Assembly: GCF_054482525.1 (NCBI RefSeq)
Contig: NZ_CM137006.1
DNA: 64,000 nucleotides
Reading direction: 5' to 3' (one strand)
Below the pieces are notes generated by a model. It did no database searches. It was not told the origin of the DNA and saw only the letters and a program-made list of their open reading frames with translations. A program made the translations under genes and the position numbers. Below, piece by piece: positions 62,428 to 62,596 of this stretch (within the stretch, counting starts at the first letter, position 1; each line of letters opens with the position of its first letter).

Positions 62428-62429
62428 TT

Positions 62430-62584
62430 ACAAGAACCAGGGGCGGAAATTCCAGCCCTCTCGATTGTTACGTAGCACGGACAGACTATACGCCTGATGG
62501 TCGTTCCCCATCGGGCCTGAAAACCGCAATACGCTGGGTAACAATCTTCGAGGGTAGCAGTTAACGCTGCTACCCTCTTTTTTC
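62430..62584 (+). ncRNA. sroC: SroC sRNA (gltI 3'UTR / gltI-gltJ spacer-derived)
   Basis: ~160-nt structured spacer ending in a strong intrinsic terminator (gagggtagcagttaacgctgctaccctctttttt); position matches SroC; 5' end approximate. Confidence 0.6.
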
Positions 62585-62596
62585 TGGAGTAGATTT

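What the first reader, a model, noticed from the sequence alone, without database searches (positions are those of the whole stretch)
62428..62596. Structured gltI-gltJ spacer consistent with the SroC sRNA
The 169-bp interval between gltI and gltJ ends in a strong intrinsic terminator inside a polycistronic operon. This is the locus from which the SroC sponge RNA (an antagonist of GcvB) is processed in E. coli and Salmonella. Together with the C/A-rich GcvB target motif in the gltI leader (61455-61480), the window contains both halves of that feed-forward regulatory loop.
Basis: established knowledge. Interest (0 to 1): 0.3.

Follow-up and report, generated by a model that had tools for sequence, protein, structure and literature searches.

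The report
SroC small RNA in gltI-gltJ spacer

Summary
The observation and the interpretation both hold. gltI ends at 62427 and gltJ starts at 62597, so the spacer is exactly 169 bp. It ends in a strong intrinsic terminator: a 12-bp stem at 62550-62577 followed by six T.

Rfam's sroC model (RF00369) matches 62423-62585 (+) end to end, at 174.8 bits against a threshold of 45. These 163 nt are identical to the annotated K-12 MG1655 gene sroC (b4763). The spacer region is present in 5421 of 5426 complete E. coli genomes.

The fold is far more stable than shuffled sequence (z = -6.5). It is also supported by compensatory changes in an alignment of 51 enterobacterial sequences.

Both published GcvB contact sites are intact, 14 nt apart as published. 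BS2 (GGACAGAC, 62479-62486) pairs with GcvB 156-163. BS1 (UCGUUCC, 62501-62507) pairs with GcvB 13-19.

The C/A-rich stretch of the gltI leader (61446-61475) pairs with the GcvB R1 seed.

Two small corrections apply. The RNA starts 5 nt inside gltI and stops 11 nt before gltJ. GcvB itself, the hub of the loop, is encoded outside this window.

Verdict: already known, low interest.

The parts
61446..61475 (+). [quoted passage not shown]
   Evidence: Pairs with GcvB nt 63-91 at -31.3 kcal/mol, third best of 25,588 windows in the 64 kb. gltI is listed as an R1-seed GcvB target in PMC9299463. PMC4474525 describes the site as both a GcvB site and a translational enhancer.
61519..62427 (+). gltI, periplasmic glutamate/aspartate-binding protein; parental mRNA of SroC
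   Evidence: ORF; annotated as gltI in E. coli genomes under the match.
62423..62585 (+). SroC sRNA, 163 nt
   Evidence: Rfam RF00369, 174.8 bits, model positions 1-163 of 163. 100% identical to K-12 sroC b4763.
62440..62459 (+). SroC stem-loop 1
   Evidence: MFE structure. 88.5% of cells paired in the 51-sequence alignment, 2 pairs with changes on both sides.
62463..62546 (+). SroC stem-loop 2, the long hairpin that carries both GcvB contact sites
   Evidence: MFE structure. Upper stem: 97% of cells paired, 6 of 9 pairs with compensatory changes. Lower stem: 6 of 13.
62479..62486 (+). BS2, GGACAGAC in the internal bulge of SL2; pairs with GcvB 156-163 (R3/SL4)
   Evidence: Exact 8-nt complementarity to K-12 GcvB. 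Corresponds to the probed and mutated site of PMC4474525 (Salmonella C63 = C62482 here).
62501..62507 (+). BS1, UCGUUCC in the apical loop of SL2; pairs with GcvB 13-19 (SL1)
   Evidence: Exact 7-nt complementarity. The loop GGTCGTTCCCC is invariant in all 51 aligned sequences although it was not part of the search pattern. The mutated Salmonella C87 corresponds to C62506 here.
62550..62585 (+). Rho-independent terminator (stem 62550-62577, U-tract 62578-62585); 3' end of SroC and of the monocistronic gltI mRNA
   Evidence: Terminator scan: 12 bp, 7 G-C, 4-nt loop, T6. 98.9% of cells paired, sequence almost invariant across genera. PMC4474525 describes it as a leaky terminator.
62586..62599 (+). 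gltJ ribosome-binding site (GGAG 62586-62589) and start codon (62597-62599), reached by terminator read-through
   Evidence: Sequence, ORF 62597-63337, annotation.

Best explanation
This is the sroC locus of E. coli.

Biogenesis. Transcription from the single gltIJKL promoter partly stops at the leaky Rho-independent terminator at 62550-62585. That gives a monocistronic gltI mRNA. 5'-end-dependent RNase E decay of that mRNA, guided by Hfq, leaves a stable 163-nt, 5'-monophosphate fragment, SroC (62423-62585).

Action. SroC pairs with the Hfq-bound sRNA GcvB at two short sites: BS2 (62479-62486) with GcvB 156-163, and BS1 (62501-62507) with GcvB 13-19. Pairing triggers RNase E degradation of GcvB, while SroC itself survives.

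Consequence. Loss of GcvB lifts repression of amino-acid and peptide transporter mRNAs such as oppA and dppA. It also lifts repression of gltI itself, whose C/A-rich leader site (61446-61475) is a GcvB R1 target. That closes a feed-forward (positive) loop. The same terminator sets the excess of the binding protein GltI over the membrane parts GltJKL.

Shown here by computation: identity, position, fold, covariation, terminator, and both complementarities.

Taken from published experiments, mostly in Salmonella, with the E. coli pair shown functional: RNase E processing, Hfq dependence, GcvB decay and the physiological effect. Applying these to this strain is inference from 100% sequence identity.
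For: Family match: Rfam sroC, 174.8 bits against GA 45, full length.

Identity and spread: 163/163 identity to the annotated K-12 sroC. The 261-bp query that spans the spacer (62380-62640) is present, median one copy, in 5421 of 5426 complete E. coli genomes, always under gltI | gltJ in the listed rows.

Fold: z = -6.5.

Alignment of 51 enterobacterial sequences: 91.3% of cells paired against 39-53% when partners are slid; 148 cells with changes on both sides against 49 +/- 6 in shuffles; covariation score 0.203 against 0.100 (0 of 500 shuffles reach it). The BS1 loop is invariant while its stem covaries.

GcvB contacts: BS1 and BS2 are exactly complementary to K-12 GcvB and 14 nt apart, as published.

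Biogenesis: no sigma-70-like promoter anywhere in 61000-64000, which fits a processed RNA.

Literature: PMC4474525. RIL-seq and MAPS data in E. coli give 67,138 GcvB-SroC chimeras in stationary phase (PMC9299463). Review PMC9438474.
Against: Nothing in the sequence argues against it. Limits of the evidence:

- The two short complementarities are not statistically remarkable on their own. 41% of shuffled SroC sequences also have at least two 7-mers complementary to GcvB. Their weight comes from published probing and compensatory mutations and from conservation.
- BS2 was part of the search pattern used to collect homologues, so its invariance in alignment A2 is partly ascertainment.
- gcvB of this strain is not in the window; the K-12 gene was used instead.
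- No expression data exist for this particular strain.
Confidence: 0.97

Rival explanations
1. The spacer is only an intercistronic attenuator. Its terminator lowers gltJKL expression relative to gltI, and the RNA fragment is an inert decay product with no function in trans.
For: The terminator is strong and lies inside an operon. ABC-transporter operons generally make the binding protein in excess, and PMC4474525 says this terminator produces the monocistronic gltI mRNA. This role is real but does not exclude the sRNA role.
Against: A terminator alone does not explain about 125 nt of conserved upstream structure with compensatory changes, nor an invariant apical loop. Published deletion, point-mutant and compensatory-mutant data show an effect in trans on GcvB. 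Abundant GcvB-SroC chimeras are found in E. coli.
Confidence: 0.02
2. The structured spacer is a copy of a dispersed repeat (REP/BIME, ERIC or a similar intergenic element) of the kind that stabilises upstream mRNA in many operons.
For: Intercistronic hairpins in ABC operons are often REP elements (established knowledge). ERIC-like insertions do occur at this very spacer in some other genera.
Against: The sequence occurs at a median of one place per E. coli genome (5432 places in 5421 genomes), under gltI | gltJ in every listed row. Rfam assigns it to sroC, not to a repeat family. The window copy carries no ERIC-like insert.
Confidence: 0.005
3. The spacer encodes a small protein, for example the 75-aa ORF on the minus strand (62428-62655) or a micro-ORF on the plus strand.
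For: A 75-aa minus-strand ORF is listed mechanically.
Against: That ORF runs antisense through the gltJ start and the terminator. The homologues differ by indels of 1, 2, 7 and 9 nt in this interval and by paired substitutions that preserve RNA helices, not a reading frame. No genome annotation lists a CDS here.
Confidence: 0.005

Closest known systems
SroC sRNA (Rfam RF00369; E. coli K-12 gene sroC, b4763; Miyakoshi, Chao & Vogel 2015, PMC4474525)
   Same: Everything tested is the same: sequence (163/163 with K-12), position between gltI and gltJ, 5' end inside the last codons of gltI, SL1-SL2-terminator architecture, and both GcvB contact sites with their 14-nt spacing.
   Different: Nothing in the RNA itself. 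The surroundings differ from K-12. K-12 has IS5D 103 nt upstream of gltI; this window instead has an uninterrupted leader and a divergent rhomboid-family protease gene. Compared with Salmonella and most other genera, the Escherichia terminator hairpin is longer (12 bp against 8 bp).
Other processed 3'-UTR-derived, RNase E-dependent sRNAs of enterobacteria (e.g. SdhX, OppZ, MalH, NarS; review PMC9438474)
   Same: They are released from the 3' end of a parental mRNA by RNase E, share the mRNA's terminator, bind Hfq, and act within the pathway of the parental operon.
   Different: SroC comes from an internal, leaky terminator within an operon rather than from the operon's end. Its main target is another sRNA (sponge or decoy action on GcvB, and also on MgrR) rather than an mRNA.

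Membership tests
SroC (RF00369) | Score against the curated covariance model above its gathering threshold, over the full model | tested here: met
   174.8 bits against 45, E = 7.4e-37, model 1-163 of 163, not truncated.
SroC (RF00369) | Position: same strand as gltIJKL, between gltI and gltJ, 5' end within the end of the gltI coding sequence | tested here: met
   62423-62585 (+). The gltI stop codon is 62425-62427 and the gltJ ATG is 62597. The layout is the same as in the K-12 annotation, where sroC overlaps gltI by 5 nt.
SroC (RF00369) | 3' end formed by a conserved Rho-independent terminator in the spacer | tested here: met
   12-bp stem plus T6 at 62550-62585. Conserved in 51 sequences, 98.9% of cells paired.
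SroC (RF00369) | Conserved secondary structure (SL1, long SL2) supported by covariation | tested here: met
   MFE z = -6.5. 15 pairs with changes on both sides. Covariation score 0.203 against 0.04-0.07 for slid partners and 0.100 for shuffles.
SroC (RF00369) | Two short sites complementary to GcvB (BS1 to GcvB SL1, BS2 to GcvB R3/SL4), 14 nt apart | tested here: met
   UCGUUCC (62501-62507) against GcvB 13-19, and GGACAGAC (62479-62486) against GcvB 156-163, with a 14-nt gap, as described in PMC4474525. The GcvB sequence was taken from K-12, because gcvB is not in the window.
SroC (RF00369) | No promoter of its own; 5'-monophosphate end made by RNase E from the gltI mRNA | not testable with these tools
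   The consensus scan finds no sigma-70-like site in 61000-64000, which is consistent but weak. Processing is known only from experiments.
SroC (RF00369) | Accumulates as a stable Hfq-bound RNA of about 160 nt and lowers GcvB | not testable with these tools
   Published for E. coli and Salmonella. Inferred for this strain from sequence identity.
GcvB R1 target sites (gltI leader) | C/A-rich single-stranded stretch in the 5' UTR complementary to the G/U-rich R1 seed of GcvB | tested here: met
   61446-61475 pairs with GcvB 63-91 at -31.3 kcal/mol, rank 3 of 25,588 windows. 61455-61480 is 81% C+A. gltI is listed as an R1 target.

The most novel reading that the evidence does not exclude
The nucleotides conserved outside the GcvB contacts might form a regulated antitermination switch. 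CCCUC (62456-62460), shared with the 3' arm of SL1, can pair with GAGGG (62550-62554), the start of the terminator's 5' arm. That extends the base of SL2 and competes with both SL1 and the terminator. If a factor or a co-transcriptional condition favoured this pairing, it would set the ratio of SroC release to gltJKL read-through, and through that the level of GcvB. Miyakoshi et al. raised the possibility of regulated termination here without proposing a structure.
Probability: 0.08. Interest if true: 0.45.

Novelty: already known. Interest (0 to 1): 0.07.

Why it matters
For this window it matters only as correct annotation. NCBI's automatic annotation of most E. coli genomes lists no feature between gltI and gltJ, although the sRNA is there and is a well-studied regulator. 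SroC links glutamate/aspartate transporter expression to the whole GcvB regulon of amino-acid and peptide uptake. It is the textbook case of an mRNA-derived sponge. No open question is advanced by finding it again in another E. coli strain.

Tried and rejected
(1) Full-length RNAduplex of SroC against GcvB and of GcvB against the leader gave uninformative giant duplexes, because intramolecular structure is ignored. I replaced this with exact k-mer complementarity and a sliding 30-nt duplex against the R1 seed.

(2) I tested whether the BS1/BS2 complementarity is significant on its own. It is not: the longest match of 8 nt is reached by 31% of shuffles, and at least two 7-mers by 41%. So I rest that point on the published experiments and on conservation, not on statistics.

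(3) The genome contigs pattern scan returned many chance matches in unrelated phyla. Only loci confirmed by blastn to the window's spacer were used.

(4) I considered a REP/ERIC repeat, a small ORF, and a pure attenuator, and rejected each (see rivals).

(5) I looked for an alternative antiterminator fold. One exists, but it is 9 kcal/mol worse than the terminator fold, and its bases are invariant, so covariation cannot test it.

(6) The other high-scoring R1 duplex windows (30746+, 26795-, 1256+ and others) are G+C-rich coding segments, not C/A-rich leaders, and were dismissed. The exception is the asnB leader.

Full report
**Observation.** The window around the finding reads as the start of the gltIJKL operon on the + strand. 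gltI runs from the ATG at 61519 to the TAA at 62425-62427. gltJ starts at ATG 62597, preceded by GGAG at 62586-62589. The terminator scan puts its best site of the region at 62550-62577: 12 pairs, 7 of them G-C, a 4-nt loop, followed by TTTTTTCT. The stretch 62423-62585 folds to -66.3 kcal/mol, against -40.5 +/- 4.0 for 200 dinucleotide-preserving shuffles (z = -6.5, no shuffle as good). The fold has a short hairpin (62440-62459), a long interrupted hairpin (62463-62546) and the terminator.

**Identity.** A gathering-threshold scan of the whole window against Rfam 15 gives one non-tRNA hit. It is sroC (RF00369) at 62423-62585 (+), 174.8 bits against a gathering score of 45, E = 7e-37, covering model positions 1-163 of 163. 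The window is E. coli. A 261-bp query across the spacer matches 5421 of 5426 complete E. coli genomes at 95% identity or more, at a median of one place per genome, and under gltI | gltJ in every listed row. In K-12 MG1655 the corresponding stretch is annotated as the ncRNA sroC (b4763, 686681-686843), overlapping gltI by 5 nt. The window is identical to it at all 163 positions; the only difference in a 211-nt alignment is a synonymous site in gltI. NCBI's annotation of other strains, for example strain 042, lists no feature in the spacer. The RNA is thus often unannotated, but it is not unknown.

**Independent support for the structure.** One plain-pattern scan of the species-representative genome collection, filtered by blastn against the window, gave homologous spacers from about 60 enterobacterial genomes. 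The genera include Escherichia, Salmonella, Citrobacter, Klebsiella, Raoultella, Kluyvera, Enterobacter, Kosakonia, Lelliottia and others.
- I aligned the window with 50 of these homologues that match in one uninterrupted stretch and scored the window's MFE structure on the alignment.
- 91.3% of cells form standard pairs, against 39-53% when the 3' partners are slid by 1-3 columns.
- 15 pairs carry changes on both sides. There are 148 such cells, against 49 +/- 6 in shuffles, and the covariation score is 0.203 against 0.100 (0 of 500 shuffles reach it).
- The covariation is concentrated in the upper stem of SL2 (6 of 9 pairs, 97% paired) and in its lower stem (6 of 13 pairs).
- The apical loop GGTCGTTCCCC is invariant in all 51 sequences. 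It was not part of the search pattern.
- The terminator is nearly invariant in sequence (98.9% paired).
- Caveat: the structure was derived from one member of the alignment, and the BS2 region was the search pattern, so its invariance is partly ascertainment.

**Mechanism.** Miyakoshi, Chao and Vogel (PMC4474525) established the following.
- SroC is a stable, Hfq-associated RNA of about 160 nt with a 5' monophosphate. Its 5' end lies in the gltI coding sequence and is not a transcription start. Its 3' end is made by the spacer terminator.
[quoted passage not shown] - The two RNAs pair at two sites of 7-8 nt, BS1 and BS2. These are 14 nt apart in SroC but far apart in GcvB.
- Double point mutants abolish regulation and compensatory mutants restore it.
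- The E. coli pair is equally functional.
- Loss of the pairing slows growth on peptides.

I checked the pairing directly, using K-12 GcvB. GGACAGAC at 62479-62486 is exactly complementary to GcvB 156-163. UCGUUCC at 62501-62507 is exactly complementary to GcvB 13-19. The two sites are 14 nt apart. The residues mutated in Salmonella (C63, C87) correspond to C62482 and C62506 here. These short matches are not statistically unusual on their own: 41% of shuffled SroC sequences have at least two complementary 7-mers. Their weight comes from the published probing and genetics and from conservation. E. coli interactome data agree, with 67,138 GcvB-SroC RIL-seq chimeras in stationary phase (PMC9299463). 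The review PMC9438474 adds that SroC also down-regulates the sRNA MgrR and represses flhBAE and fliE.

**The other element of the loop.** The stretch 61455-61480 is 81% C+A. The 30-mer 61446-61475 (-73 to -44 from the gltI ATG) pairs with GcvB nt 63-91, the R1 seed, at -31.3 kcal/mol. That ranks third of 25,588 windows tested on both strands of the window; the two better windows are G+C-rich coding sequence. gltI is tabulated as an R1 target, and the site also acts as a translational enhancer. Two qualifications apply. First, gcvB itself is not in this window. Second, deleting the CA site had little effect on GcvB stability in the paper, so it is SroC, not the leader site, that removes GcvB.

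**Rivals.**
- A pure attenuator role for the terminator is real but not exclusive. The paper itself says the leaky terminator yields the monocistronic gltI mRNA and so the excess of binding protein. It cannot explain the conserved, covarying upstream structure or the published effects in trans.
- A dispersed repeat is excluded by the near-single-copy distribution, a median of one place per genome.
- A coding role, such as the 75-aa antisense ORF, is contradicted by indels that are not multiples of three and by helix-preserving substitutions.

**Most novel reading not excluded.** The authors noted conserved nucleotides outside the GcvB contacts and wondered whether termination is regulated. I found a possible alternative pairing of CCCUC (62456-62460) with GAGGG (62550-62554). 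It would extend SL2 and compete with both SL1 and the terminator. It is the MFE for a transcript ending at 62570, but in the complete RNA it is 9 kcal/mol worse than the terminator fold (-57.1 against -66.3). Both segments are invariant, so covariation cannot test it. I give it a probability of about 0.08.

**Verdict.** The feature is the known, experimentally characterised sRNA SroC in its usual place, with an unchanged sequence. Novelty: already known. Interest: low.

Noticed in passing
window 49170-49199 (+), upstream of the asnB ATG at 49217: A second C/A-rich stretch (ACAAGCAAACACAACAAGCAACAAATACCA) lies -47 to -18 from the asnB start. It pairs with the GcvB R1 seed at about -29 kcal/mol, among the ten best of 25,588 windows. 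asnB is listed among verified GcvB targets in PMC9299463. So the window holds two GcvB-regulated leaders as well as the GcvB antagonist.
   Followed up: partly
L028:1995-2147 (Citrobacter braakii); L097:528-663 and L090:1770-1904 (Phytobacter); L053:7057-7191 (Kosakonia sp. S29): In these species an insertion of about 127 nt with TACAC...GTGTA ends sits between the gltI stop codon and SL1 of SroC, in the region where RNase E makes the 5' end. In C. braakii it matches the ERIC1R primer at 18 of 22 positions. Whether SroC is still processed correctly there is unknown.
   Followed up: partly
L051:11969-12070 and L016:3537-3636 (Siccibacter): Siccibacter carries an insertion of about 78 nt in the 3' half of SL2, and its BS1 loop reads GGCCGTTCCCC (T to C). 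This may be a divergent or impaired SroC, like the truncated Yersinia homologue described in PMC4474525.
   Followed up: no
window 62558-62569 (inner part of the terminator hairpin): Escherichia species have a terminator hairpin lengthened by about 9 nt (GGGTAGCAGTTAACGCTGCTACCC, 12 bp). Most other genera have GGGTAGCGCTGCTACCC (8 bp). Kluyvera has a different insertion at the same spot. This is why the 3' end of the Rfam alignment looks poorly matched. Whether it changes how leaky the terminator is remains unknown.
   Followed up: partly
window 59187-61064 (-): A 625-aa ORF, annotated in E. coli 042 as a rhomboid family intramembrane serine protease, lies divergent from gltI, between lnt and gltI. 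K-12 MG1655 instead has IS5D starting 103 nt upstream of the gltI ATG. So this window is not K-12, and its gltI promoter region is uninterrupted.
   Followed up: partly
window 19995-24963: About 5 kb of the window has no counterpart at this position in E. coli 042, where it would lie between ybfA and kdpF. This is a strain-variable segment whose content I did not examine.
   Followed up: no
window 51261-51961 (+): A cluster of seven tRNA genes (Met, Leu, Gln, Gln, Met, Gln, Gln), matching the annotated tRNA cluster in strain 042. It is ordinary.
   Followed up: no
E. coli genome collection: Two of the 5432 matches to the gltI-sroC-gltJ junction are on records labelled as plasmids, and 5 of 5426 genomes lack the junction altogether. 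I did not examine either.
   Followed up: no
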